This document shows positions 31,336-46,160 of a stretch of 64,000 bases of DNA, piece by piece. The translations under genes and the position numbers were made by a program. Each line of letters begins with the position of its first letter. The stretch's first letter is position 1. The DNA is from Candidatus Binatia bacterium (lineage in GTDB: Bacteria; Desulfobacterota; Binatia; HRBIN30), in contig JBBRSP010000001.1 of NCBI GenBank assembly GCA_038245295.1, forward strand, positions 288,001-352,000, written 5' to 3'. The notes beneath the pieces are model-generated. The model did no database searches, was not told where the DNA came from, and saw only the letters and a program-made list of their open reading frames with translations.

Positions 31336-32253
31336 ATGAACAAGGCTGCTGTCGATCCGGCAACGGAGATCTCGCATGAGTTTGTCCAGGCCAACGGGCT
31401 GCGCTTCCACGTCGCCAGCTGCGGCGCTGGTGATCGCTTGGCGCTCTTCCTGCACGGATTTCCCGAGTGCTGGTACTCGTGGCGGGCGCAGATGCCGGCC
31501 CTGGCGAGTCTCGGCTATCGCGTCTGGGCTCCCGATCTGCGCGGCTACGGTCAGACTGATCGGCCGCCTCATCGTGAGGACTATGCCATCGAAACGTTGA
31601 TGGAGGATGTGGGCGCCTTGATCGACGCGTCCGGTGCCCGCGAGACGGTGTTGCTGGCGCACGATTGGGGCGGCGTTATCGCCTGGTACTTTGCGACCCG
31701 GAAGGTGCGGCCCTTACAACGGCTGGTGGTGATGAACTTGCCGCATCCGCAGGTGATGCAGGAGCACCTCTTGCCGCGACAGATCTTCCGTTCGTGGTAT
31801 GCCCTGTTCTTCCAGCTTCCGCGCCTACCGGAAATGGCGATGCGGGCGCGAAACTACCATGCGGTGCGTGCGGCCTTCCTTAATATGGCGATCGACAAGA
31901 GTCGCTTTCCGAGGGAGCTGCTTCAGTTCTACTGCGACGAGGCGGCGCGTCCGGGTGCCCTGACGGCGATGTTCAACTACTACCGCGCCCTCATCCGCGG
32001 CGGCGGCGGCGCCCGTCAGCGCGCCCTTGGCTTCGCAAAGATTGATGTGCCGACACTGATGTTGTGGGGCGAGCACGACGCGGCGCTGGGCAAAGAGACG
32101 ACATACGGAACCGAGCGCTACGTCAACGATCTCACCATTCGCTACCTGCCGCGAGTGTCGCATTGGGTGCAACAGGAAGCCCCGGAGAAGGTCAACGCGA
32201 TGGTCACCGCGTGGTTGAGCGGCCAGCGCGTGCCCGAAGCGCACGAGATCTAA
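31336..32253 (+). CDS. Alpha/beta hydrolase (epoxide hydrolase-like)
   Basis: LHGFPE, PDLRGYG, AHDWGG, SHWVQQEAP. Confidence 0.92.
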   Translation: MNKAAVDPATEISHEFVQANGLRFHVASCGAGDRLALFLHGFPECWYSWRAQMPALASLGYRVWAPDLRGYGQTDRPPHREDYAIETLMEDVGALIDASGARETVLLAHDWGGVIAWYFATRKVRPLQRLVVMNLPHPQVMQEHLLPRQIFRSWYALFFQLPRLPEMAMRARNYHAVRAAFLNMAIDKSRFPRELLQFYCDEAARPGALTAMFNYYRALIRGGGGARQRALGFAKIDVPTLMLWGEHDAALGKETTYGTERYVNDLTIRYLPRVSHWVQQEAPEKVNAMVTAWLSGQRVPEAHEI

Positions 32254-32262
32254 GGCCCGGGC

Positions 32263-32349
32263 AAAGGGTCCTGCCCCCGTTTTCGCTAGCGCGACGCTTG
32301 GCTTCCTTGATGATGTCCGCTGGCAGAAAAGGGTCCTGTCCCCTTTTTC
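32263..32349. repeat. Pair of short REP-like imperfect palindromes
   Basis: AAAGGGTCCTGCCCCCGTTTT and AAAAGGGTCCTGTCCCCTTTTT. Confidence 0.55.
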
Positions 32350-32469
32350 AGGAACCCGATCACCGATGCGGCCCGACCGCGGCGGCGCCGAGTGCGCGGC
32401 GTCGAATTACGATTTGAAGAAGGAATTGTTGCGCTTGGATCGCATGAGGATTAGAGGAGCAGAAGAGAC

Positions 32470-32835
32470 ATGACGCACCGACGCTCACTGCGCATCGCGA
32501 TCCTCTTGAGCCTGACGCTGCTCCTCCAGGCGGCGTACGTCGGTCCGGCGCGTGCCACCGCCAGTGTCCGCGCCATTCATTGCTGCGCCACCCGATGCCA
32601 CCATATGCCGTCGCCGGCACGTTCCGCACGATGCTGCGGCGTCGAGCGCGATGAAAGCGGCCTGGCTCCAGCATCAACGATACAACCTCTGCCTGCACCG
32701 GCCTTCGCGGCGCTCCTTCCTGTGATCGCTGTAACTTCGCCTCTGTCGCGCACGGGTCTACACTTCGACCCAACGGCGCGCCTGTCGGCGCGTGCCGCGC
32801 CAATCTTTCTCCTCACTCTGTCCCTGCGTATCTGA
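32470..32835 (+). CDS. Exported Cys/His-rich leader protein (DUF2946/CutF-like) upstream of the cus operon
   Basis: Signal peptide, HCCATRCHH and RCC, C-terminus RAAPIFLLTLSLRI; GAGGAG RBS. Confidence 0.75.
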   Translation: MTHRRSLRIAILLSLTLLLQAAYVGPARATASVRAIHCCATRCHHMPSPARSARCCGVERDESGLAPASTIQPLPAPAFAALLPVIAVTSPLSRTGLHFDPTARLSARAAPIFLLTLSLRI

Positions 32836-32967
32836 GATTCTCCATCCCGGTTCGGGCGTGTCGTTCGTTCGGCACTGCCCGGAGGTGTCTGTTGGCCATC
32901 CAACAGGCGGCTGAACGATCCCGTTCGGTCCACGATCAGGCCAGTTTCGGCGTGGAGAGATGTCATG
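32833..32967 (+). promoter_or_regulatory. Anti-SD:SD pairing sequestering the TolC ribosome-binding site
   Basis: TCTCCAT (32839-32845) can pair with GTGGAGA (32952-32958); internal hairpin GTCTGTTGG/CCAACAGGC. Confidence 0.6.
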
Positions 32968-34224
32968 AAGCGAGTATTGACTGTCGGGTATTTGGCGGCT
33001 GCCAGCTGCTTGTGGGCGACCCATCCTGCCCAGGCCCAAGGCGACGTGTCCCTCACCCTGGCAAGCGTGATCGAAGTTGCGCGCCAACGAAATCCTGAAA
33101 TCGAGGCGGCACGGCAGCGTGCTACCGGGGCGGCGGCGGTGCCGGCTCGCGTCAGCGCGTATGACGATCCGACCTTCGCATGGGAGGCCTACAACGCGCC
33201 GGAGTCGCTGCGCATCGATCGCGCCGACAACAATATCCTCCGTGTTTCGCAACGTATCCCGTTCCCGGGGAAACGCAGCCTGGCCGGCGTTGTGGCTGAG
33301 CACGATGCCGAGGTCATGCAGCAGGATGTTACCAGCGTCGAGTTGGACGTCGTCACCGCGGTTCGCCGCGCCTACTACGATCTGTGGCTGGCGCATCGGA
33401 CACTGGATCTCTTCGAGCGCGAGAAGTTGTTGCTGCAGCGATTCAGCCACATCGCCGAGCAACGCTACGCCACCAGTGAGGTCACGCAGTCCGACGTCTT
33501 GCGGGCGCAGGTCGAACTCACCCGCACGATCAACCGGATCGCGACGCAACAGTTGGTGATCGACGCGGCACGCGCCGAGTTGAACGCGTTGCTGAGCCGA
33601 GAGCCGGATGATCCGTTGGGCGATCCCGATCCACCACCCGTACCGCGACTCGCCGCGACACCGGTAGCGTGGATGGCGCGCGCACTGAAACAGCGCCCGG
33701 AGCTGGCGGCGCAAACCGCTGTCCTTGCCCGCGAAGACAGCAGTGTCCGTCTGGCGGAGATGAACTACCTGCCGGATTTCGAGTTTACGGTCGGCCGTTT
33801 CTTCAACTACGATCGCAACGATGGCTTCGGCGCCATTGCCTCGGTCACCCTGCCGTTCGTCTACCGCTCGAAGTACGCCGCCGGCATCGCCGAAGCCAAC
33901 GCGCGTGTCGCGGCGGCACAAGCCGACCAACGCAAGCTGAGTGATCGAATCCGCCGCGAGGTGACGCAGAGCTTCGTGAGAGCCCGCACCGCACTGCTGC
34001 AGCGCGAGCTGTTCGTCACCACACACATTCCCCAGGCCGAGCAGGCGTTGCGGGTTACGGAGAGCGCGTATCAAACCGGGACGGTCGACTTCCTGGCCCT
34101 CGTCGATACCGCGCGCAGCATCGAGATGGCGCACGTCGAACACCTGCAAGCCGAGGCGGACTTCCAGAAGGCCTATGCTGATTTGGAGCGCGCCGCCGGC
34201 GTGTTCCCATCGAGCCAGCCGTGA
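32965..34224 (+). CDS. TolC/CusC-family outer membrane efflux protein
   Basis: Signal peptide, NPEIEAA, SQRIPFPGK, DVLRAQVEL, AYQTGTVDF. Confidence 0.9.
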   Translation: MKRVLTVGYLAAASCLWATHPAQAQGDVSLTLASVIEVARQRNPEIEAARQRATGAAAVPARVSAYDDPTFAWEAYNAPESLRIDRADNNILRVSQRIPFPGKRSLAGVVAEHDAEVMQQDVTSVELDVVTAVRRAYYDLWLAHRTLDLFEREKLLLQRFSHIAEQRYATSEVTQSDVLRAQVELTRTINRIATQQLVIDAARAELNALLSREPDDPLGDPDPPPVPRLAATPVAWMARALKQRPELAAQTAVLAREDSSVRLAEMNYLPDFEFTVGRFFNYDRNDGFGAIASVTLPFVYRSKYAAGIAEANARVAAAQADQRKLSDRIRREVTQSFVRARTALLQRELFVTTHIPQAEQALRVTESAYQTGTVDFLALVDTARSIEMAHVEHLQAEADFQKAYADLERAAGVFPSSQP

Positions 34225-34241
34225 GGCGAGGAGTCATGATC

Positions 34242-35474
34242 ATGCGCGTACGTCGGTTGTTCGTAAGTATCGTCCTGCTTCTGGTCGCCTTTGGTGCGGG
34301 TGTATTTGTTCCGCGGTCGTGGCTGTCGGTTCCATCAACGCCGGACACTCTCGGGTCGGTCACGAAGAAGGAACGTTACCAGTGTGCCATGCACCCGCAG
34401 ATCGTTCGCGACCACCCGGGTAACTGTCCAATCTGTCAGATGACACTGCAACGCGTCGAGGACGGCGAAGTGCTGCCAACTCCGGCCGCGTCTTCCAACG
34501 GCAAGTCGAAGATCCTCTTCTATCGTCACCCGATGCGGGCGGACGTGACGTCCCCCGTCCCCGCGGTCGACGAGATGGGCATGGCCTACATTCCGGTGCG
34601 CGAGGAAGATGTTGGCGGCGGCACAGGAGGGGACGTTCCGGACCACGCGCCATTCACGCTCTCCGTGCAGCGCCAGCAACTCATCGGTGTAACTCGAACA
34701 AAGCTCGAACGGCGCAACCTCGATGTCGAGATTCGCGCCGTCGGCAAGGTTGCGTATGACCCGCAGCTCTATCAGGCGATCAGCGAATACCGTGAGGCGC
34801 GCAAGGCCAATGCGGGAATCGCCGACAGCACTGTCCCTGAGGCTCACGCCGGGGCGAACGCGATGGTGCGCTCGTCGGCGCTGAAGCTGCGACAGATGGG
34901 GATCTCCGAGCAGCAACTGCGCGAGCTGACCGAGAGCGGCGCCTCACCGACCAACCTGTTGCTGCCGGGCAAAAGTGCTTGGATCTATGCCCAGGTTTAC
35001 GAATACGAAATGGACAGCGTGCACCCGGGACAGACGATCGAAGTCACAACACCAGCTCTCCCGGGTCGTACCTTCACCGCCAAGATTGTGGCCGTTGATG
35101 CAATCCTCAATGCCGCGACGCGCACGGTGCGGGTGCGAGCCCTGGTGCAGACTCCGGATACGGTGCTGCGCCCCGAGACCTTCGTGCACGTGAAGATTCG
35201 CGTCCCGTTGGGGGAGAAACTAGCAGTGCCCGAAGACGCGGTTCTCGATACCGGCGAGCACCAGGTTGTCTTTGTCGTCATGGGCGAAGGACATTTCGAG
35301 CCGCGCTCCGTGCAACTAGGTCGAGAAGCGCAGGGCTATTACGAGGTCTTGTCCGGAATCGAGGTCGGTGAAGAAGTCGTCACTTCGGCCAACTTCCTGA
35401 TTGATTCGGAATCGCGCTTTCGCTCGGCCCTCGCCGCTTTTGCCGCGAAACCGCCGGCTGCCCACGCGCACTGA
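34242..35474 (+). CDS. cusB: CusB-like RND membrane fusion protein with heavy-metal-binding domains
   Basis: YQCAMHPQIV..CPICQM, YRHPM...DEMGM, ANFLIDSES; start 34221/34236/34242 uncertain. Confidence 0.88.
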   Translation: MRVRRLFVSIVLLLVAFGAGVFVPRSWLSVPSTPDTLGSVTKKERYQCAMHPQIVRDHPGNCPICQMTLQRVEDGEVLPTPAASSNGKSKILFYRHPMRADVTSPVPAVDEMGMAYIPVREEDVGGGTGGDVPDHAPFTLSVQRQQLIGVTRTKLERRNLDVEIRAVGKVAYDPQLYQAISEYREARKANAGIADSTVPEAHAGANAMVRSSALKLRQMGISEQQLRELTESGASPTNLLLPGKSAWIYAQVYEYEMDSVHPGQTIEVTTPALPGRTFTAKIVAVDAILNAATRTVRVRALVQTPDTVLRPETFVHVKIRVPLGEKLAVPEDAVLDTGEHQVVFVVMGEGHFEPRSVQLGREAQGYYEVLSGIEVGEEVVTSANFLIDSESRFRSALAAFAAKPPAAHAH

Positions 35475-35485
35475 GGAGAACGGCG

Positions 35486-38400
35486 ATGGTGGAACGAATC
35501 ATCGAGTTCAGCGCGCACAACAAGTTCCTGGTGTTGTTGCTCACCGCCGTGGCGTTGGTTGGAGCGACCTGGACGGTCCGTACGATCCCGCTCGACGCGA
35601 TTCCCGATCTCTCCGATACACAAGTGATTGTCTACTCGCGCTGGGATCGCAGCCCGGATCTGATCGAGGATCAGGTTACATATCCGATCGTCTCGGCGTT
35701 ACTCGGCGCACCCAAGATCAAGGTTGTCCGCGGCTTCTCCGATTTCGGTTACTCTTACGTCTACGTCATCTTCCAGGACGGCACCGACCTTTACTGGGCG
35801 CGTGCCCGGGTGCTCGAATATCTCAGCAAGATCCTGCCGCGTTTGCCCGAGGGGGTGCAGACCGAGCTCGGCCCCGACGCCACCAGCGTCGGCTGGGTGT
35901 ATCAGTACGCTCTCACCGATCATTCCGGGACGCACGATCTCGCCGAGCTGCGCAGCCTGCAAGACTGGTATCTGCGCTACCATCTACAAGCCGTGCCGGG
36001 TGTGGCCGAGGTGGCGGCGGTGGGTGGGTTCGTCAAGCAGTATCAGGTCAATGTCGATCCGCAGCTACTGCTGGCGTACAATATCCCGCTGACCCAGGTG
36101 CTCGACGCGATTCGCCGCGGCAACAAGGAGGTTGGCGGTCGCGTTCTCGAGTTCGCCGGCACCGAATACATGGTGCGCGGGCGCGGCTACATCAAGTCGA
36201 TCGACGACATCGAGAAGATTGTCGTGTCGACCGATCCGTCGTCGGGCACGCCGGTACAGGTCAAACAGGTTGCGAAGGTGGCGCTGGGGCCGGACATGCG
36301 CCGCGGCGTGGCCGACCTGGACGGGCAGGGCGACACCGTCGGTGGCATCGTTGTCATGCGTCACGGCGAGAATGCGCTCCAGGTCATCGAGCGTGTCAAA
36401 GCGAAGCTCGAAGAGCTCAAACCCAGCCTGCCGGAGGGGGTGGAGATCATTCCGACCTACGACCGTTCCGGCCTCATCGAACACTCCATCGATACGTTGC
36501 TCCATTCTCTGCGCGAGGAGATGATCATCGTCAGCTTCGTGATCTTGCTCTTCCTGTGGCACTTCCCCTCGGCGATCATTCCGATCATCACGATTCCTGT
36601 CTCGGTATTCCTGGCGTTCATCCCGCTCTATCTGATGGGCTTGAGCTCGAACATCATGTCGCTGTCCGGCATCGCCATCTCGATCGGTGTGCTCGTCGAT
36701 GGAGCTATCGTCGAGGTCGAGAATGCCTACAAGCGGCTTGAAGAGTGGATCGAGGGTGGCCGGCAGGGCGACTTCCATCTCGTCCGACTGCAGGCCCTCA
36801 AAGAAGTCGGACCGTCGGTCTTCTTCTCACTGCTGGTGATTGCGATCGCCTTCTTGCCGGTGTTCACGCTGGTCGATCAGGAAGGCCGTCTCTTCAAGCC
36901 ACTCGCCTACTCGAAGAACCTGGCGATGGCGCTCGCGGCTGTCCTCGCGATCACCCTCGATCCCGCATTGCGCATGATGTTCACGCGCATGGACTACGCA
37001 CACTTTCGACCGCGTTGGCTCGCATCGATTGTCAACACGGTGACGGTCGGGCGCTACTACACCGAGGAACGCCACCCGATCAGTCGCGTCTTGTTTGCCG
37101 TCTATGAGCCCGTGTGTCGGTTTGTGTTGCGGCATCGTGTTCTAACGCTGGTGCTTGCGCTGGGCTTGGTGGCATCCACCGTCCCCGTCTATTTCAAGCT
37201 CGGTTCGGAGTTCATGCCGCCGCTCAACGAAGGTGCCTTTCTCTACATGCCGACGGCGTTGCCGGGCATGTCGGTCACTGAGGCGCAGCGCATCCTGCAA
37301 ATCCAGGACAAGATCATCCGCAGCTTCCCGGAAGTGGAGACGGTGTTCGGCAAGGCGGGTAGAGCGACGTCGCCCACCGACCCGGCGCCGTTCTCGATGG
37401 TCGAGACGACGATCATGCTGAAGCCCGAGTCGACGTGGCGGCCGATGCGGCGCTGGTACTCCGACTGGCCGGCTCCGCTGCGCTGGTTGTTTTCGTCGGT
37501 GACGCCGGAGCACATGACGTTTACCGAGCTGCAAGACGACATGGACGCCAAGCTGCGCTTCCCCGGCATCCCGAACATCTGGACCATGCCGATCAAGAAC
37601 CGCATCGACATGCTGTCGACCGGCGTGCGCACGCCGATCGGCATCAAGATCCTCGGCGCCGACCTCAAAGTGATCCAGAAAGTCGGCGAGGATCTCGAAG
37701 GGATCATTCGCGAGATTCCGGGCACGCGAAATGTCATCGCCGAGCGCACCGCCGGTGGGTACTACGTCGACTTCACGCTGAATCGCGACGAGCTGGCACG
37801 CTACGGCCTGTCGATTGAAGACGGACAGACGGTGATCATGTCGGCGATCGGCGGCGAGAACATCACCAATACGATCGAGGGGCGCGAGCGTTACCCGGTG
37901 AACGTCCGCTACGGTCGCGAATTCCGTGACAACATCGATGAGCTGCGGCGCGTCCTGGTGCCGACGGCGTCGGGGGCGCAGGTGCCGCTGGCCCAACTGG
38001 CCGACATCAAATTCTCGGAAGGCCCGTCGATGATTCGCAGCGAGAACGGCCACCTCGCCGGCTACGTGTACGTCGATATGGACAGCACCCGTGATCTTGG
38101 CGGGTATGTGCACGAAGCGAAGAAGCGTGTCGCCAAAGCCCTGCAGCTGCCCAAGGGCTACAGCCTGGTGTGGAGCGGCCAATACGAGAATCTGGCGCGG
38201 GTGCGCGAGCGCTTGAAGATGGTGATCCCGTTGACGCTCTTCCTGATCGCGCTGCTGCTGTACATGAACACCAAATCGGTAGTGAAGGCCGGTATCGTCA
38301 TGCTCGCCGTGCCGTTCTCGCTGATCGGCGCCATCTGGTTGCTCTACGTGCTCGGATACAACACGTCGATTGCCGTCTGGGTCGGCATGATCGCCCTCAT

Positions 38401-38776
38401 GGGTCTTGATGCCGAGACCGGCGTCTTCATGCTGCTGTTTCTGGATCTCGCCTACGACGAACGTGTCCGCAAAGGCACGATGCGAACCTGGACGGATCTC
38501 GAGGAAGCGATCCTGCACGGCGCCGTGAAGCGTGTGCGCCCGAAGATGATGACCGTGATGGCGTCCTTCTTCGGCCTGCTGCCGATCATGTGGTCGATCG
38601 GCGCCGGGTCGGACGTAATGAAACGCATCGCCGCGCCGATGGTAGGTGGGCTTTTCACCTCGTTCCTTCTCGAGCTGCTCGTCTACCCGGTCATCTACTC
38701 GATCTGGAAGTGGCGTTTCGAAATGAAAGGCGGCAGCGTAATCCCACAGCCGGCCTTGATCGGCACGCCCCGCTAG
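35486..38776 (+). CDS. cusA: CusA-type Cu(I)/Ag(I) RND efflux permease
   Basis: LDAIPDLSDTQVI, LGPDATSVGW; Met triad context SEFMP, APFSMVET, WTMPIKNRIDM; AVKRVRPKMMT. Confidence 0.95.
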   Translation: MVERIIEFSAHNKFLVLLLTAVALVGATWTVRTIPLDAIPDLSDTQVIVYSRWDRSPDLIEDQVTYPIVSALLGAPKIKVVRGFSDFGYSYVYVIFQDGTDLYWARARVLEYLSKILPRLPEGVQTELGPDATSVGWVYQYALTDHSGTHDLAELRSLQDWYLRYHLQAVPGVAEVAAVGGFVKQYQVNVDPQLLLAYNIPLTQVLDAIRRGNKEVGGRVLEFAGTEYMVRGRGYIKSIDDIEKIVVSTDPSSGTPVQVKQVAKVALGPDMRRGVADLDGQGDTVGGIVVMRHGENALQVIERVKAKLEELKPSLPEGVEIIPTYDRSGLIEHSIDTLLHSLREEMIIVSFVILLFLWHFPSAIIPIITIPVSVFLAFIPLYLMGLSSNIMSLSGIAISIGVLVDGAIVEVENAYKRLEEWIEGGRQGDFHLVRLQALKEVGPSVFFSLLVIAIAFLPVFTLVDQEGRLFKPLAYSKNLAMALAAVLAITLDPALRMMFTRMDYAHFRPRWLASIVNTVTVGRYYTEERHPISRVLFAVYEPVCRFVLRHRVLTLVLALGLVASTVPVYFKLGSEFMPPLNEGAFLYMPTALPGMSVTEAQRILQIQDKIIRSFPEVETVFGKAGRATSPTDPAPFSMVETTIMLKPESTWRPMRRWYSDWPAPLRWLFSSVTPEHMTFTELQDDMDAKLRFPGIPNIWTMPIKNRIDMLSTGVRTPIGIKILGADLKVIQKVGEDLEGIIREIPGTRNVIAERTAGGYYVDFTLNRDELARYGLSIEDGQTVIMSAIGGENITNTIEGRERYPVNVRYGREFRDNIDELRRVLVPTASGAQVPLAQLADIKFSEGPSMIRSENGHLAGYVYVDMDSTRDLGGYVHEAKKRVAKALQLPKGYSLVWSGQYENLARVRERLKMVIPLTLFLIALLLYMNTKSVVKAGIVMLAVPFSLIGAIWLLYVLGYNTSIAVWVGMIALMGLDAETGVFMLLFLDLAYDERVRKGTMRTWTDLEEAILHGAVKRVRPKMMTVMASFFGLLPIMWSIGAGSDVMKRIAAPMVGGLFTSFLLELLVYPVIYSIWKWRFEMKGGSVIPQPALIGTPR

Positions 38777-38845: not shown

Positions 38846-41260
38846 ATGGCTTGCGGCCTGACGTGCCCGGTGGCTGGCGATGCCCGCGCGAGTAGCTGGA
38901 GCCTCGTCTCCTTGACGGCTCGAGAACGCTCTCGTATGGCTCCTTCGGTGTCGGAGAGAGCGCCTGAAGTCTATCCAGAACCTCCGACGACGCTGACGCC
39001 GCCGCATTCGCCCTTGGCGGACGAGAATCCACTCGAGGCAGCCTTGAGCATCGGCCTGGCGACGTTCATGTCCACGAGTGCGCTCATTCTGCTGAAGCTG
39101 CTCGTAACAAAGACGTTTTCTGTTCCCACGTTGAACTTCGGTGGTCGCGGTCCGCAGCTCCTTTCGCTTGCCCAGGGTGTGCTCGTCACACCAGGGGTTG
39201 TAGCCTTGATCACCGTGGGCGCAGTCCTCCTCGGGCGATTCTATGCACGATTGGTTGGAGAGGGGTCGCTGGGATCCATCCTGACCGCCTCACTCGCCGG
39301 CATCGCCGGCGCGATCGCCATGGTTCCGGTGCTCGGACGAGAGGCCGACAGCACGCGGATGCCGTTGGTTATCCTGATCCCGATCCTGCTGGGCATTGCC
39401 GCACTGGTTTGTCATCAGAGTCGACTGGTCACGCGCGGGGTCCTCTTCAGCGCCTGTTTGCCCGGGGCACTGTTCGCGTACAGTCTTGCGTCGCTGTTGG
39501 ACAGTGAAGGAATCACCGCCGCCTTTCCGCTGAACTCGGAGCTGGCGCGACAAGGAGTTGCTGCCCTGGGCGGGCTCCTCATCGGGCACCTTGTTGCCTT
39601 CCTTCTTCCGACGGTCATTGGGGTGCTCTTGCTGTCCGGCTGGGGGCAGCAGTGGGCATGGCGCAGCCTTCTTGCTTTTGGCCTCATGGGTGCGGCCGCG
39701 TGGATGGTATTGATCCTGGACAATATCCTCGAGCCGCTGCTCGCTTTCCCTGGCCTCTTCGATTTTCGTTTCGCCATCGAGCTGCTGGCGATCCTCATGG
39801 GCGCGGCGGGTGTCGGCCTGTTGTTGAGTCGCGGCCGGGCGCAAGCAGGGGCCGCTGGCGTTGCCATCGCACTGGCGCTAGCCGCCGTCCCACTTCCGAT
39901 CACCCCAAAGGCAGCAATGTATTCTTCGGGAATGGCCATCGACGTGTGGGTTCGGCGTTCCTACTCGGAAGTCTTCGACCGCGACGGGGATGGAGCATCG
40001 ACCTTGTTCGGGGAGGGGGATTGCGATGATCACAATGCCGCCATCCGTCCCGGCCGCCCCGACGTCCCGTTCAACGGCATCGATGAAAACTGTTTGGCGG
40101 GCGACCTGCAGCAGGCGGATGTACCCCCGAATCGGTGGCAGATCACCCATCCGGCATCAGCCAACCACAGCATTCTTCTGGTCACGGTCGATACGCTACG
40201 CTCCGACATCGTGTTCGGAGCAAATGGGACAATGCCGCGTTTGCGCAGCTTCGCCCAACGCCACGGTGGATTCGACAATGCTCACGCTCTCGGCGGCGCC
40301 ACCGCTTTTGGCCTTCTCAATCTCTTCTACACGGAAGAGATCTCACCCTACGCTCTGCCGCGTCATCGCAACCTTCCGAGTTATATGAAGGAGGCGGGCT
40401 ATCGAACACTGTGCATCTACCCGACCTACCGCGCCGCATCCGTGGATGTGCCTACGACGATCTTTCAGGAATGCGATCTGGCCGAGGTTGTTGCCGGCGA
40501 CGACAAGGCGCGCATCCCTTCCGGGCAGGAAGTGATCGAGCGGGCGCTCTTGCGCATGAATCAAATTGCTGGGAACAAGTTCGTCTGGATACAGCTCGAC
40601 GACCTTCACGACTACGTCGTGTACCGTCCCGGTAAAGGCTACAAAAGCTACTACTTGTTCGATGGCCTTTCGTCGCTGGGCTCGTATCAGACCCTACGAT
40701 CCTACTTGCTCGCCAAGTATCGCGAGCGCGCTGCCTATCTCGACCGAGTCTTGGATGAACAGATCCTGTCTCGCTTCGAGAACGACCCCGCATTCGCCGA
40801 CACTCTTCTGATCTTGACCGGTGATCACGGCGAGGAGTTCCTGGAGCACGGCGGCATCTTTCATGGCTCAACTCTTTACGAAGAGCTGACGCGTGTCCCG
40901 ATCGTCTTCTCGGATGGCCAGGCCGGAGAGATCTACCATCACCCAATGGCTCATCAGGACGCCGTCAAGAGCATGATGGCGTACGCCGGCTTCGAGCGTT
41001 TTCCCGAGCCGGCAACAACCTTGCGCACACCGCCCAGCGACGACCGTGTCCTCGTCGGATTGATGGTCAGCAACGGCCTCTTCTCTGTACGCCGCGGCAG
41101 GTACAAACTCATTCTGAACTTCTTCACCGGCGCTGAGATGTTGTTCGACCTCGTCGACGATCCAGGGGAGACACGCGACCGGAGCGGTGATCTTCCGCAG
41201 GTTGCGGCTGAGTTTAGGACGCTGGCCGACATCGAAGAGCGCCGGATCATCAAGCGCTAG
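38846..41260 (+). CDS. Membrane-anchored sulfatase-like/alkaline-phosphatase superfamily protein
   Basis: N-terminal TM helices; DRDGDG..GDCDD..NGIDENC motif; VTVDTLRSD, TGDHGEEF; start uncertain. Confidence 0.75.
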   Translation: MACGLTCPVAGDARASSWSLVSLTARERSRMAPSVSERAPEVYPEPPTTLTPPHSPLADENPLEAALSIGLATFMSTSALILLKLLVTKTFSVPTLNFGGRGPQLLSLAQGVLVTPGVVALITVGAVLLGRFYARLVGEGSLGSILTASLAGIAGAIAMVPVLGREADSTRMPLVILIPILLGIAALVCHQSRLVTRGVLFSACLPGALFAYSLASLLDSEGITAAFPLNSELARQGVAALGGLLIGHLVAFLLPTVIGVLLLSGWGQQWAWRSLLAFGLMGAAAWMVLILDNILEPLLAFPGLFDFRFAIELLAILMGAAGVGLLLSRGRAQAGAAGVAIALALAAVPLPITPKAAMYSSGMAIDVWVRRSYSEVFDRDGDGASTLFGEGDCDDHNAAIRPGRPDVPFNGIDENCLAGDLQQADVPPNRWQITHPASANHSILLVTVDTLRSDIVFGANGTMPRLRSFAQRHGGFDNAHALGGATAFGLLNLFYTEEISPYALPRHRNLPSYMKEAGYRTLCIYPTYRAASVDVPTTIFQECDLAEVVAGDDKARIPSGQEVIERALLRMNQIAGNKFVWIQLDDLHDYVVYRPGKGYKSYYLFDGLSSLGSYQTLRSYLLAKYRERAAYLDRVLDEQILSRFENDPAFADTLLILTGDHGEEFLEHGGIFHGSTLYEELTRVPIVFSDGQAGEIYHHPMAHQDAVKSMMAYAGFERFPEPATTLRTPPSDDRVLVGLMVSNGLFSVRRGRYKLILNFFTGAEMLFDLVDDPGETRDRSGDLPQVAAEFRTLADIEERRIIKR

Positions 41261-45655: not shown

Positions 45656-46048
45656 GTGAAGCGTACTATCACCAGTCTCCTGTTGCTGGCGTTGTTCGCG
45701 GCCGACCTGCTGCTTTGTCCTTGTGTCGGGACGGCGACGGCATCGACGCCGCAATCACGACGCAAGGCAGACGCCCACGAGTGCTGCCCCGCCGCCGACG
45801 AATCCGGACGAGGGCACGGGGCGGTCCCCCAGCATCATCCTGGCTGCGATCATTGCGATCATGGCGGTGCCTCGCTCACCGCCGCGAGCAACGCCGCCTC
45901 GTTCCAGGCGCCGCAATTGTGGGCGATGTCACCTGTGATATCGGCTGTCCCGTTTCTACCTGCTTCCGTCCCTTCGGCCTTCGGAGATCGAATCCCGAAG
46001 CCTCCCCCGTTGCCACTGACGCACCGCACGTGCGTCTTGCTGATTTGA
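45656..46048 (+). CDS. Exported Cys/His-rich leader protein (DUF2946/CutF-like) upstream of the TolC-oxidase-ATPase operon
   Basis: Signal-like N-terminus, CPC, HECC, HHPGCDHCDH, C-terminus PKPPPLPLTHRTCVLLI. Confidence 0.8.
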   Translation: MKRTITSLLLLALFAADLLLCPCVGTATASTPQSRRKADAHECCPAADESGRGHGAVPQHHPGCDHCDHGGASLTAASNAASFQAPQLWAMSPVISAVPFLPASVPSAFGDRIPKPPPLPLTHRTCVLLI

Positions 46049-46051
46049 CCA

Positions 46052-46160
46052 CCTCTTCCATCTGACCCGTCTCTCTTAATTGAGACGTGCGGGATTTCTC
46101 GCGTTTGATCGGCCATACCGCCGCGGCGCGAGCGGTCTGTTTGGAAGAGGAGCGTCCATG
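46052..46160 (+). promoter_or_regulatory. Anti-SD:SD pairing sequestering the TolC ribosome-binding site
   Basis: CCTCTTCCA (46052-46060) is the exact reverse complement of TGGAAGAGG (46142-46150), overlapping SD GAGGAG before ATG 46158. Confidence 0.72.

What the first reader, a model, noticed from the sequence alone, without database searches (positions are those of the whole stretch)
32470..32967. Second, independent leader ORF plus anti-SD gate on the CusCBA-type operon
Seen: a 121-aa ORF with signal peptide, HCCATRCHH and RCC, ending RAAPIFLLTLSLRI-TGA. Again four nt after the stop, TCTCCAT (32839-32845) can pair with GTGGAGA (32952-32958, the tolC SD), and pairing extends imperfectly so the TGA pairs with TCA at the start codon; inner hairpins CGGGC/GCCCG and GTCTGTTGG/CCAACAGGC fill the 130-nt spacer. 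Known: RAPP-like motifs cause ribosome arrest; cus operons are normally under CusRS. Inference: translational attenuation controls this RND pump.
Basis: partly seen in the sequence, partly recalled or inferred. Interest (0 to 1): 0.85.

Follow-up and report, generated by a model that had tools for sequence, protein, structure and literature searches.

The report
Leader peptide gate on metal-efflux operon
A small exported cysteine-rich peptide gene sits in front of a copper/silver-type efflux pump operon, and the RNA just after its stop codon folds back to hide the pump's ribosome-binding site, an arrangement conserved across many relatives and resembling the recently described CutF/CruR copper-sensing leader peptides.

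Summary
The 121-aa ORF (32470-32835) is a real gene. Exhaustive search finds 118 cluster representatives, nearly all 102-157 aa and matched to their own last residues. 69 of 401 sampled genomes of the class (Candidatus Binatia by record titles) carry it. Conserved parts: signal peptide, CCxxxCHH and RCC motifs, a sequence-variable linker of fixed length, and a C-terminal RA[AG]PxFLLTRSLRL-stop.

The 20 nt after the stop pair with the Shine-Dalgarno (SD) region of the next gene. In the window the ensemble probability is 0.96. It is >=0.5 in 32 of 47 related loci against 8 of 207 ordinary gene pairs of this genome. Native arm pairs beat cross-locus pairs in 10000 of 10000 permutations.

The gate is therefore real and selected. 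Modelling says it opens when a ribosome reaches the stop codon, not when one sits at RAAP ten codons earlier.

The kind is already published: CutF, CruR/DUF2946 and RAPP-type arrest peptides, with RND outer-membrane genes named as the commonest CutF-like neighbours. This family matches no Pfam or NCBIfam model and mostly lacks the PP motif. I call it a new variant of a known kind. Metal sensing and arrest are untested.

The parts
32470..32835 (+). Leader gene: 121-aa exported Cys-rich peptide, first cistron of the operon
   Evidence: ORF and translation. 118 relatives at E<=1e-3, nearly all 102-157 aa and matched to their own C-termini. Open frame without stops in relatives.
32470..32556 (+). 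Predicted Sec-type signal peptide (residues 1-29, ending ARA)
   Evidence: By eye. Conserved pattern in alignment A2. AF2 helix at 2-24 with pLDDT about 90. No predictor was run.
32578..32637 (+). Putative metal-binding motifs HCCATRCHH (res 37-45) and RCC (res 54-56)
   Evidence: C55 and C56 are invariant; C38, C39 and C43 are kept in >=90% of 71 sequences. The spacing between the CCxxxC motif and the second CC is 17 residues in 86 of 109.
32791..32832 (+). Conserved C-terminal peptide RAAPIFLLTLSLRI (family consensus RAAPxFLLTRSLRL), always directly before the stop
   Evidence: P at -11 in 105 of 109 representatives and 38 of 48 loci. L at -3 in 45 of 48. Synonymous codons are mixed, about equal CTC and CTG, so selection is on the peptide.
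32833..32835 (+). Leader stop codon TGA, at the base of the gate helix
32836..32851 (+). 5' arm of the gate (anti-SD; core TCTCCAT at 32839-32845)
   Evidence: Duplex of -17.0 kcal/mol with the SD region. MFE helix. In relatives the arm centre lies 7.8 +/- 2.3 nt after the stop.
32852..32946 (+). Spacer with four local hairpins that form the multiloop closed by the gate helix
   Evidence: MFE and centroid structures. No Rfam family at E<=1.
32947..32967 (+). 3' arm of the gate: SD (GGAGA at 32954-32958) and the start codon ATG at 32965-32967 of the OEP gene
32965..34224 (+). Outer-membrane efflux protein (CusC/TolC type), the gated cistron
   Evidence: PF02321, E = 1.5e-43.
34221..35474 (+). 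Membrane-fusion protein, CusB type, with a heavy-metal-binding domain
   Evidence: PF16576 and PF19335. Its start overlaps the OEP stop.
35486..38776 (+). RND transporter (AcrB/CusA/CzcA family)
   Evidence: PF00873, E = 9.6e-213.
45656..46157 (+). The other leader of the window (130 aa, ends PKPPPLPLTHRTCVLLI) and its gate to the OEP start at 46158. Same architecture, no demonstrable homology.
   Evidence: P(SD pairs with post-stop nt) = 0.72; duplex -15.9 kcal/mol.

Best explanation
The 121-aa ORF is the first cistron of a cusCBA-type heavy-metal efflux operon. It acts in cis as a translated leader.

In the free mRNA, the 16-20 nt right after its stop codon pair with the SD and start-codon region of the next cistron, about 130 nt downstream. 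The stop and start codons end up side by side at the base of a long-range helix, and initiation on the outer-membrane gene is blocked. A ribosome that translates the leader to its stop codon covers and unwinds the 5' arm, whose centre lies about 8 nt after the stop. That frees the SD.

Synthesis of the pump's first protein, or of a small secreted protein placed before it in some relatives, therefore depends on how often and for how long ribosomes occupy the leader's stop codon.

The leader has a Sec-type signal peptide, CC/CHH/CC motifs, a linker of fixed length and a conserved C-terminal RA[AG]PxFLLTRSLRL. By analogy with CutF and CruR, these parts most likely make that arrival or dwell time depend on metal bound by the nascent, partly exported chain.

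Shown here: the gene is real, the helix is conserved and covaries, and the modelled opening is by a terminating ribosome. Inferred: translation of the leader in vivo, any pausing or arrest, metal dependence, and which metal.
For: Gene reality:
- 118 relatives at E<=1e-3, nearly all 102-157 aa and nearly all matched through their own last residues.
- 69 of 401 genomes of the class carry it, 25 of 25 in family f12.
- Codons of the conserved tail vary synonymously.

Synteny:
- The next gene is an OEP in 36 of 50 loci. In 11 of the other 14 it is an 84-103-aa ORF; in the two such loci read further (L013, L014) the OEP, fusion-protein and RND genes follow.

Gate:
- The duplex between the post-stop 20 nt and the SD region is <= -13 kcal/mol in 43 of 47 loci.
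- The native mean is -18.14 against -14.17 for cross-locus pairs. 0 of 10000 permutations reach it. The same holds for 43 non-redundant loci.
- Other 20-nt windows of the same spacers give -11.2 and shuffled arms -12.35.
- The SD pairs with the post-stop arm at P>=0.5 in 32 of 47 loci, against 8 of 207 background gene pairs.

Modelled SD accessibility (mean of 47 loci; window in brackets):
- free RNA 0.22 (0.03)
- ribosome at codon -12: 0.24 (0.03)
- stop codon in the A site: 0.44 (0.74)

Sensor-like anatomy:
- The distance from the second CC to the C-terminus is 67 residues, within +/-3 in 104 of 109, although the linker sequence is not conserved.
- AF2 gives no globular fold: pTM 0.32, residues 60-121 coil.

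Precedent:
- CutF: Sec signal peptide, CxxxC, C-terminal Pro motif, stem-loop over the cutO SD, with OEP/RND genes the commonest neighbours of CutF-like genes (PMC9973294, sections 3, 6, 10-13).
- CruR/DUF2946: CXXC plus RAPP with fixed spacing (PMC9426467, passages).
- B. subtilis YwcI: RAGP at residues 88-91 of 100 arrests translation (PMC10987492, passages).

Context:
- No response regulator, histidine kinase or MerR-type gene among the 28 neighbouring ORFs scanned.
Against: - There are no expression, probing or ribosome data. No RNA run holds this stretch.
- All structure evidence is thermodynamic prediction plus comparison.
- 15 of 47 loci have P<0.5 for the proposed pairing. In a few the SD pairs with the ORF tail instead: L040, L043, L065.
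- The count of pairs outside the SD core is only modestly above cross-locus pairs: 6.13 against 5.47, with 128 of 10000 permutations reaching it.
- The window's own duplex energy is matched by 8% of ordinary gene pairs.
- The background sets rest on my rough ORF-based gene calls.
- The window's motif RAAP is not among the tested arrest motifs listed in PMC10987492. Most RAPP-like sequences tested there did not stall.
- The Pro motif of CutF sits 2-4 residues from its end; here it is 10 residues away.
- The conserved tail could serve the mature protein rather than the ribosome.
- Kin are not independent, so permutation counts overstate significance.
Confidence: 0.6

Rival explanations
1. Plain translational coupling with no sensing. 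The small protein is a working periplasmic component, a metal chaperone or pump accessory in the manner of CusF or CzcI. The gate only ties OEP synthesis to its synthesis in a fixed ratio, and the conserved C-terminal tail is a docking or sorting motif of the mature protein.
For: - The gate opens in the model with any terminating ribosome, without arrest.
- The tail is conserved at the peptide level, as a binding motif would be.
- Cys/His motifs suit a metal chaperone.
- The Discussion of PMC9973294 cites CzcI, upstream of czcCBA, as a CutF-like protein without a Pro motif that is suggested to be a metal-sensing regulator.
Against: - AF2 finds no fold beyond two short helices. Residues 60-121 are coil at pLDDT 54-68.
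- The roughly 50-residue linker keeps its length but not its sequence. That fits a ruler between tunnel and translocon better than a domain.
- Secreted CutF is degraded rapidly and acts only in cis (PMC9973294, sections 3, 8, 13).
Confidence: 0.25
2. The helix serves the RNA rather than initiation. It would act as a transcription pause or Rho-dependent termination switch (as proposed for CruR), or as an RNase processing or stability element. SD masking would then be incidental.
For: - CruR acts through Rho-dependent termination in a 162-nt spacer (PMC9426467, passages).
- Spacers here are long, 63-140 nt in 46 of the 47 loci modelled (the 47th, L022, has an aberrant C-terminus and a doubtful 44-nt spacer), and contain GC-rich hairpins.
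Against: - In 43 of 47 loci the 3' arm is the SD region itself, whichever gene follows.
- In 38 of those 43 the main stack places stop and start within a few nt of each other.
- Only two weak terminator-like hits lie in 32150-33050, against 0.6 expected, and neither is the gate.
Confidence: 0.1
3. Chance complementarity in a GC-rich spacer next to a spurious ORF.
For: The window's duplex energy alone is reached by 22 of 267 background pairs. Word-based homology search found nothing.
Against: - Exhaustive search finds 118 relatives.
- The arrangement recurs in 43 of 47 loci with locus-specific complementarity.
- 0 of 207 background pairs reach P>=0.9.
Confidence: 0.02

Closest known systems
CutF of Rhodobacter capsulatus (cutFOG operon). 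Ozturk et al., mBio 2023, PMC9973294; bioRxiv 10.1101/2025.02.05.636593
   Same: - About 120-aa leader (CutF is 118 aa) with a Sec signal peptide, a Cys metal motif in the early mature part and a Pro-containing C-terminal motif.
- It acts in cis.
- An RNA structure between the leader and the next gene shields that gene's SD.
- The paper names OEP/RND genes as the commonest neighbours of CutF-like genes.
   Different: - CutF ends PEPEGPPPRL, with an EF-P-dependent PPP 2-4 residues from the end. Here the end is RA[AG]P plus a conserved 10-residue tail. PP lies within the last 15 residues in only 12 of 109, so most members would fail the paper's own filter.
- The Cys motif is CCxxxCHH...RCC rather than CxxxC.
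- The gate is a long-range helix spanning about 63-140 nt and closing at the stop and start codons. In CutF it is described only as a stem-loop between cutF and cutO.
- The gated gene is a pump component, not a multicopper oxidase.
- I could not see the paper's protein list (File S1), so I cannot say whether any member of this family is in it.
CruR / Pfam DUF2946 (PF11162), Bordetella pertussis bp2923. Roy et al., mBio 2022, PMC9426467
   Same: - First gene of metal-related operons.
- Export signal, Cys motif, C-terminal R-A-x-P motif.
- Fixed spacing between the two motifs and a long spacer.
- The nascent chain is proposed to sense copper.
   Different: - The DUF2946 HMM does not match: 0 of 71, and not at this locus in the genome search.
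- DUF2946 has CXXC and RAPP three residues from the end with 45-residue spacing. A true member in this genome ends ...PRAPPARA.
- CruR works through Rho-dependent termination and copper represses a TonB-dependent importer.
RAPP-type ('RQH family') arrest peptides: SecM, ApdA/ApdP, ApcA, YwcI. Fujiwara et al., Nat Commun 2024, PMC10987492
   Same: - Small ORF with an N-terminal export signal and a C-proximal (R/Q/H)-(A/G/D)-(P/G/S)-(P/G) motif.
- RAGP (17 of 109) and RASP (4 of 109) variants occur in this family.
- YwcI carries RAGP nine residues before its end.
- In the text passages, downstream-gene control through an SD-covering stem-loop is stated for SecM, VemP and MifM (PMC9973294, Discussion).
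   Different: - The commonest form here, RAAP (35 of 109, and the window's own), has Ala at the third position, which is not in the published motif set.
- The downstream gene is not a Sec/YidC component.
- The stall site that motif would give is about 30 nt short of the gate arm.
- No arrest has been shown.
CzcI, CusD and SilD of Cupriavidus metallidurans: small ORFs upstream of czcCBA, cusCBA and silCBA (named as CutF-like in PMC9973294)
   Same: A small ORF directly upstream of the outer-membrane gene of a heavy-metal RND operon. CzcI lacks the Pro-rich motif.
   Different: I had none of their sequences, so similarity was not tested. Their mechanism is also unknown according to the paper.
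Translational coupling by SD masking in polycistronic mRNAs (recalled textbook cases: MS2 coat-replicase, rpmI-rplT)
   Same: The SD of the downstream cistron is base-paired with upstream RNA and is opened by ribosomes translating the upstream cistron.
   Different: In those cases the masking segment lies inside the upstream coding region. Here it lies just after the stop, inside the footprint of a terminating ribosome. These cases are recalled and were not checked in a call.

Membership tests
Pfam DUF2946 (PF11162) | Match to the family HMM above its cut-off | tested here: not met
   0 of 71 family members match at E<=1. A six-frame search of the own genome at E<=10 hits C4:132115-132450 and two weak places, not this locus nor the second leader. 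Pfam scans of P0001 and P0003 give 0 families.
Pfam DUF2946 (PF11162) | CXXC motif plus RAPP about 3 residues from the C-terminus, about 45 residues apart (PMC9426467) | tested here: not met
   Here the motifs are CCxxxCHH and RCC. RA[AG]P lies 10 residues before the end, about 55 residues after the second CC.
CutF-like proteins (rule set of PMC9973294) | Under 150 aa with an N-terminal signal peptide | tested here: met
   121 aa. The signal peptide is judged by eye and from the AF2 helix at 2-24. No predictor was run.
CutF-like proteins (rule set of PMC9973294) | [quoted passage not shown] | tested here: not met
   The window's protein ends RAAPIFLLTLSLRI, with a single Pro. PP is present in 12 of 109 representatives, and P stands at both -12 and -11 in about half of the 48 loci.
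CutF-like proteins (rule set of PMC9973294) | [quoted passage not shown] | tested here: met
   129-nt spacer. P(SD paired with the post-stop arm) = 0.96. This is prediction only.
CutF-like proteins (rule set of PMC9973294) | Metal-dependent control of the downstream gene that needs leader translation, export and both motifs | not testable with these tools
   Needs reporter and labelling experiments.
RAPP-type (RQH) arrest peptides | (R/Q/H)-(A/G/D)-(P/G/S)-(P/G) near the C-terminus | tested here: inconclusive
   The window has RAAP, and Ala at the third position is outside the published set. In the family: RAGP 17, RASP 4, RAAP 35, RGAP 10, RPAP 9 of 109.
RAPP-type (RQH) arrest peptides | Demonstrated ribosome stalling with the third motif residue in the P site | not testable with these tools
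   Needs toeprinting or in vitro translation.
RAPP-type (RQH) arrest peptides | A stalled ribosome reaches and melts the SD-masking structure | tested here: not met
   With the P site at codon -12 the modelled SD accessibility is unchanged: 0.24 against 0.22 (mean of 47); window 0.03 against 0.03.
HME-RND CusCBA-type efflux operon | OEP, then a CusB-type fusion protein with a metal-binding domain, then an AcrB-family RND pump, in one direction | tested here: met
   PF02321; PF16576 and PF19335; PF00873. Metal specificity was not tested.

The most novel reading that the evidence does not exclude
This family is a distinct class of metal-sensing arrest peptide with logic inverted relative to SecM and CutF.

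- OFF state: the nascent chain arrests at RA[AG]P, ten codons before the stop. That is deliberately out of reach of the gate, so the stalled ribosome keeps the pump off and blocks following ribosomes.
- ON state: metal binding to the CC/CHH/CC motifs, which have just emerged from the translocon (fixed 55-residue ruler), generates or changes the pulling force that releases the arrest. The ribosome then runs to the stop codon and unwinds the arm, freeing the SD next to the juxtaposed start codon.

RND pump synthesis would then answer periplasmic metal directly, without any transcription factor.
Probability: 0.2. Interest if true: 0.7.

Novelty: new variant of a known kind. Interest (0 to 1): 0.5.

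Why it matters
Heavy-metal RND pumps are usually thought of as controlled by two-component systems. The CutF and CruR work of 2022-2025 showed that small exported leader peptides can sense copper as nascent chains. It predicted, without testing, that many pump operons use this.

This locus adds three things:
- A well-populated family outside Pfam and NCBIfam, in Binatia and, by Atlas lead only, perhaps Acidobacteriota.
- A different C-terminal motif.
- Unusually clear comparative support for the RNA gate, including the geometry in which the stop and start codons are juxtaposed.

It gives a defined construct, the leader-spacer-OEP start of about 520 nt, on which the arrest site, the metal and the logic of the switch can be tested. 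It also shows that the PP filter used to catalogue CutF-like genes misses whole families.

Tried and rejected
- Word-based homology search of the leader: 116 candidates, none scored. Exhaustive HMMER was needed.
- The search for related loci with alignment A2 failed for lack of a conserved stretch. With A1 it gave only 3 loci, useful for organism names.
- Pfam and NCBIfam scans of 71 members: no shared family. The commonest was nec1, 2 of 71, best E = 0.21.
- ESM Atlas: nearest clusters are unnamed hypothetical proteins of 116-128 aa. The DUF8199 and DUF2946 clusters are only leads at 0.93-0.94.
- Homology between the two leaders of the window: BLASTP E = 24; hhalign probability 1%; an HMM of 11 divergent members against P0003 scored -0.3 bits. 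Not shown, although the divergent C-termini (PPLYTLHCTLLI) look like P0003's PPLPLTHRTCVLLI.
- P0003 relatives: 7 of 401 genomes at E<=1e-3, all weak. Not pursued.
- Rfam: no family at E<=1 in 32200-33100.
- Sigma-70 promoter scan of 32150-33050: 0 sites anywhere, including upstream of the leader, so it says nothing about a promoter in the spacer.
- Public runs: no RNA holder listed.
- RNA-level selection on the FLL codons (CTCCTC as a second anti-SD): codon counts show about equal CTC and CTG at -8, -7 and -3, so this is rejected as the main cause of tail conservation. The last codon is biased (CTC 20 against CTG 4).
- Supplement search of PMC9973294 for Binatia, CusD and SilD: the 3 files held as text contain none of these terms, and the protein list was not available.
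- No formal covariance model or R-scape-type test was built, because the loop length varies and joined sequences could not be submitted. I used energy permutations instead.
Full report
WHAT IS THERE

The ORF at 32470-32835 (+) has an ATG start, encodes 121 aa and ends in TGA. Its product is MTHRRSLRIAILLSLTLLLQAAYVGPARA..., then HCCATRCHH, RCC, and the C-terminus RAAPIFLLTLSLRI. After a 129-nt spacer come three genes:
- an outer-membrane efflux protein (32965-34224, PF02321);
- a CusB-type fusion protein with a heavy-metal-binding domain (34221-35474);
- an AcrB-family RND pump (35486-38776).

Upstream lies an alpha/beta hydrolase gene that ends at 32253. It is followed by two copies of a hairpin-plus-T-run element (see 'In passing'), so the leader most likely starts a new transcription unit.

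THE FOLD IN THE WINDOW

The minimum-free-energy and centroid structures of 32810-32985 both close a helix between the nucleotides just after the stop and the SD/start region. Four local hairpins lie inside it. Energy is -71.7 kcal/mol, z = -2.59, and 2 of 200 shuffles fold as well. In the Boltzmann ensemble of the RNA from 90 nt before the stop to 30 nt past the start, the SD core pairs with nt +1..+22 after the stop with probability 0.96.

THE ORF IS A REAL GENE

The word-based search found nothing. HMMER against 1.84 billion representatives found 118 proteins at E<=1e-3, 20 of them at E<=1e-10. Nearly all are 102-157 aa, and nearly all alignments run to the last residue of the hit.

I aligned the query with 70 of the 118 hits. 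I chose by eye those of similar length with full-length matches and left out 48. In that alignment:
- C55 and C56 are invariant.
- P26, A35, C38, C39, C43, P111, L114 and L119 are kept in >=90%.
- The middle of the protein is not conserved.

In whole genomes the family profile matches 69 of 401 sampled genomes of the class, and 25 of 25 in one family of that class. This tally includes the unpublished genome G228. In the window's own family, the single query P0001 matches 5 of 26 genomes at E<=0.01 (own genome included), one of them doubtful; the profile matches 3 of its 25 other genomes. Record titles name the organisms as Candidatus Binatia or 'Deltaproteobacteria bacterium' MAGs.

None of the 71 aligned sequences matches a shared Pfam or NCBIfam family, DUF2946 included. 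AlphaFold2 on the alignment gives mean pLDDT 69 and pTM 0.32. It shows a signal-peptide helix, two short helices over the Cys motifs, and coil for residues 60-121.

THE GATE IS CONSERVED

I took the 30 loci returned and fetched 20 more distant ones. For each I located the leader's stop and chose the next start codon by SD strength. One start (L035) was corrected by hand from the sequence.

The next gene is an OEP in 36 of 50 loci. It has no Pfam match in 14 of 50, and 11 of those are 84-103-aa ORFs. In the two such loci read further, L013 and L014, the OEP, fusion-protein and RND genes follow. Three loci with apparent spacers over 160 nt were dropped, leaving 47.

Results on these loci:
- The duplex between the 20 nt after the stop and the 25 nt ending at the start codon is <= -13 kcal/mol in 43 of 47.
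- Its mean is -18.14 kcal/mol, against -14.17 when arms of different loci are combined. 0 of 10000 permutations reach the native mean. The same holds for 43 loci whose arms are under 70% identical (-17.95 against -13.92).
- In the first 30 loci, other 20-nt windows of the same spacers give -11.2, the last 20 nt of the ORF -11.9, and shuffled arms -12.35.

So there is a generic anti-SD just after the stop and, on top of it, locus-specific complementarity in the flanks. Examples are CGGTCCTCCG/CGGAGGACCG, GACTCCTC/GAGGAGTC and TCGCGTCTCCC/GGGAGACAGCGA. A weaker measure, pairs outside the SD core, is 6.13 against 5.47, with 128 of 10000 permutations reaching it.

In the ensemble, the SD pairs with the post-stop arm at P>=0.5 in 32 of 47 loci, median 0.69. 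As background I called genes roughly in this genome (long ORFs, greedy, best-SD start) and took same-strand neighbours:
- With spacers of 60-200 nt, the duplex mean is -11.1 and 22 of 267 pairs are <= -17.
- With spacers of 60-160 nt, P>=0.5 holds in 8 of 207 pairs and P>=0.9 in 0 of 207.

Kin are not independent, and the background gene calls are approximate.

GEOMETRY

The centre of the 5' arm lies 7.8 +/- 2.3 nt after the stop. In 38 of 43 loci the main stack puts the stop and start codons within a few nt of each other at the helix base.

I modelled a ribosome by removing all RNA up to 13 nt past the first P-site nucleotide. Mean SD accessibility over the 47 loci, with the window in brackets:

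| State | Mean of 47 | Window |
|---|---|---|
| Free RNA | 0.22 | 0.03 |
| P site at codon -12 (the RAAP position) | 0.24 | 0.03 |
| Stop codon in the A site | 0.44 | 0.74 |
| Whole arm removed | 0.49 | 0.76 |

The gate therefore responds to ribosomes at the stop codon, not to a ribosome held at RAAP.

THE PEPTIDE LOOKS LIKE A SENSOR

- Among the query and the 118 hits, 109 carry both Cys motifs by my regular expression; 10 do not and were dropped.
- The distance from the second CC to the C-terminus is 67 residues at the median and within +/-3 in 104 of 109. The linker sequence is nevertheless not conserved.
- P stands at -11 in 105 of 109.
- The four residues at -14..-11 are RAAP in 35, RAGP in 17, RGAP in 10, RPAP in 9 and RASP in 4.
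- PP occurs in the last 15 residues in only 12 of 109.
- In 48 loci (two with aberrant C-termini left out) the conserved Leu positions use CTC and CTG about equally, so the tail is selected as a peptide. Stops are TGA 32, TAG 12, TAA 4.

WHAT IS KNOWN

CutF of Rhodobacter capsulatus (PMC9973294; I read the abstract, sections 3, 6, 8 and 10-12, and part 1 of the Discussion):
- It is a 118-aa leader with a Sec signal peptide, a CxxxC motif and a C-terminal Pro-rich motif.
- Its co-translational export is slowed by copper, which lets a stem-loop over the cutO SD unfold.
- They report OEP genes of RND systems as the commonest neighbour and name CusD, SilD, CopL, CruR and CzcI as members.
- The 2025 preprint (10.1101/2025.02.05.636593; abstract and the first part of the Results) gives the motif P109EPEGPPPRL118 and shows EF-P dependence.

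CruR of Bordetella (PMC9426467; passages):
- It defines DUF2946 by CXXC plus a C-terminal RAPP, 45 residues apart.
- Copper is proposed to relieve stalling and trigger Rho-dependent termination.

Fujiwara et al. (PMC10987492; passages):
- They describe the (R/Q/H)-(A/G/D)-(P/G/S)-(P/G) arrest family, which stalls with the third residue in the P site.
- They show that YwcI, with RAGP at residues 88-91 of 100, arrests translation.
- They also found that most RAPP-like sequences they tested do not stall.

My full-text searches found no paper on this Binatia family or on an RA[AG]PxFLLTRSLRL motif. The protein list of PMC9973294 was not among the supplements held as text, so members may already be listed there.

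MEMBERSHIP

This is not DUF2946 by HMM. A true DUF2946 gene elsewhere in this genome ends ...PRAPPARA. The window's protein fails the CutF-like PP rule but meets the other rules. It works like CutF/CruR in architecture, but is not shown to be their homologue.

THE OTHER LEADER

The ORF at 45656-46048 (130 aa, ending PKPPPLPLTHRTCVLLI) precedes a second OEP gene (ATG at 46158), then a multicopper oxidase and a P-type ATPase. Its post-stop arm pairs with that SD: duplex -15.9 kcal/mol, P = 0.72. No similarity to the first family is demonstrable. It has few detectable relatives: 7 of 401 genomes, a tally that includes the unpublished genome G343.

VERDICT

- The translational gate is supported by comparison and covariation of energy.
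- Coupling to leader translation is the most economical mechanism.
- Metal sensing through the nascent chain is likely by analogy but unproven.
- Arrest at RAAP does not fit the geometry as the opener.
- The kind is known. This is a new, unannotated variant with a distinctive tail and a long-range helix that juxtaposes the stop and start codons.

IN PASSING

- The element AAAGGGTCCTGNCCCCTTTT occurs 36 times in the genome, often in pairs about 65 nt apart. It occurs twice just upstream of the leader.
- The last leader codon is biased to CTC/ATC.
- An 84-103-aa secreted protein is inserted between the leader and the OEP gene in 11 of 50 loci. It takes over the gated position.

Noticed in passing
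window 32264-32283 and 32329-32348 (+): Two copies of a hairpin-plus-T-run element (AAAGGG TCCTGN CCCCTTTT) lie between the upstream hydrolase gene and the leader. The core pattern occurs 36 times in the genome, often as pairs about 65 nt apart. It looks like a REP-like or intrinsic-terminator element of this organism.
   Followed up: partly
window 45656-46157 (+): A second leader-type ORF (130 aa, HECCP and GCDHCDH motifs, PPP near the end) has its own post-stop anti-SD pairing with the SD of a second OEP gene (ATG at 46158). That gene is followed by a multicopper oxidase and a Cu-type P-ATPase. By the PP rule it is more CutF-like than the first leader.
   Followed up: partly
L013:7027-7304 (-), L014:2482-2760 (+) and 9 further loci: In 11 of 50 loci an 84-103-aa ORF sits between the leader and the OEP gene and is the gene whose SD is gated. 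The two copies read (L013, L014) have a secretion-like N-terminus; the L014 copy has only a weak Pfam hint (Metal_resist, E = 0.23). The window lacks it.
   Followed up: partly
window 32830-32835 and the same position in 48 loci: The last sense codon of the leader is CTC (20) or ATC (15) in 35 of 48 loci, while CTG is rare (4). At the other conserved Leu positions CTC and CTG are about equal. This suggests a nucleotide-level constraint next to the stop codon.
   Followed up: no
window 38846-41260 (+): The gene after the RND pump encodes an 804-aa protein that combines a MopE-type putative copper-binding motif with a sulfatase domain. This is an unusual partner for a cus-type operon.
   Followed up: no
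G000:C4:132115-132450 (-), locus L067 1489-1947: A bona fide DUF2946 gene (152 aa, CPIC motif, ending PRAPPARA) lies elsewhere in the same genome. The organism therefore carries at least three different leader-peptide types.
   Followed up: partly
window 32806-32815 (+): The FLL codons of the leader tail spell a second TCTCC anti-SD-like run inside the ORF. In a few relatives (L040, L043, L065) the SD is predicted to pair with the ORF tail rather than with the post-stop arm.
   Followed up: partly
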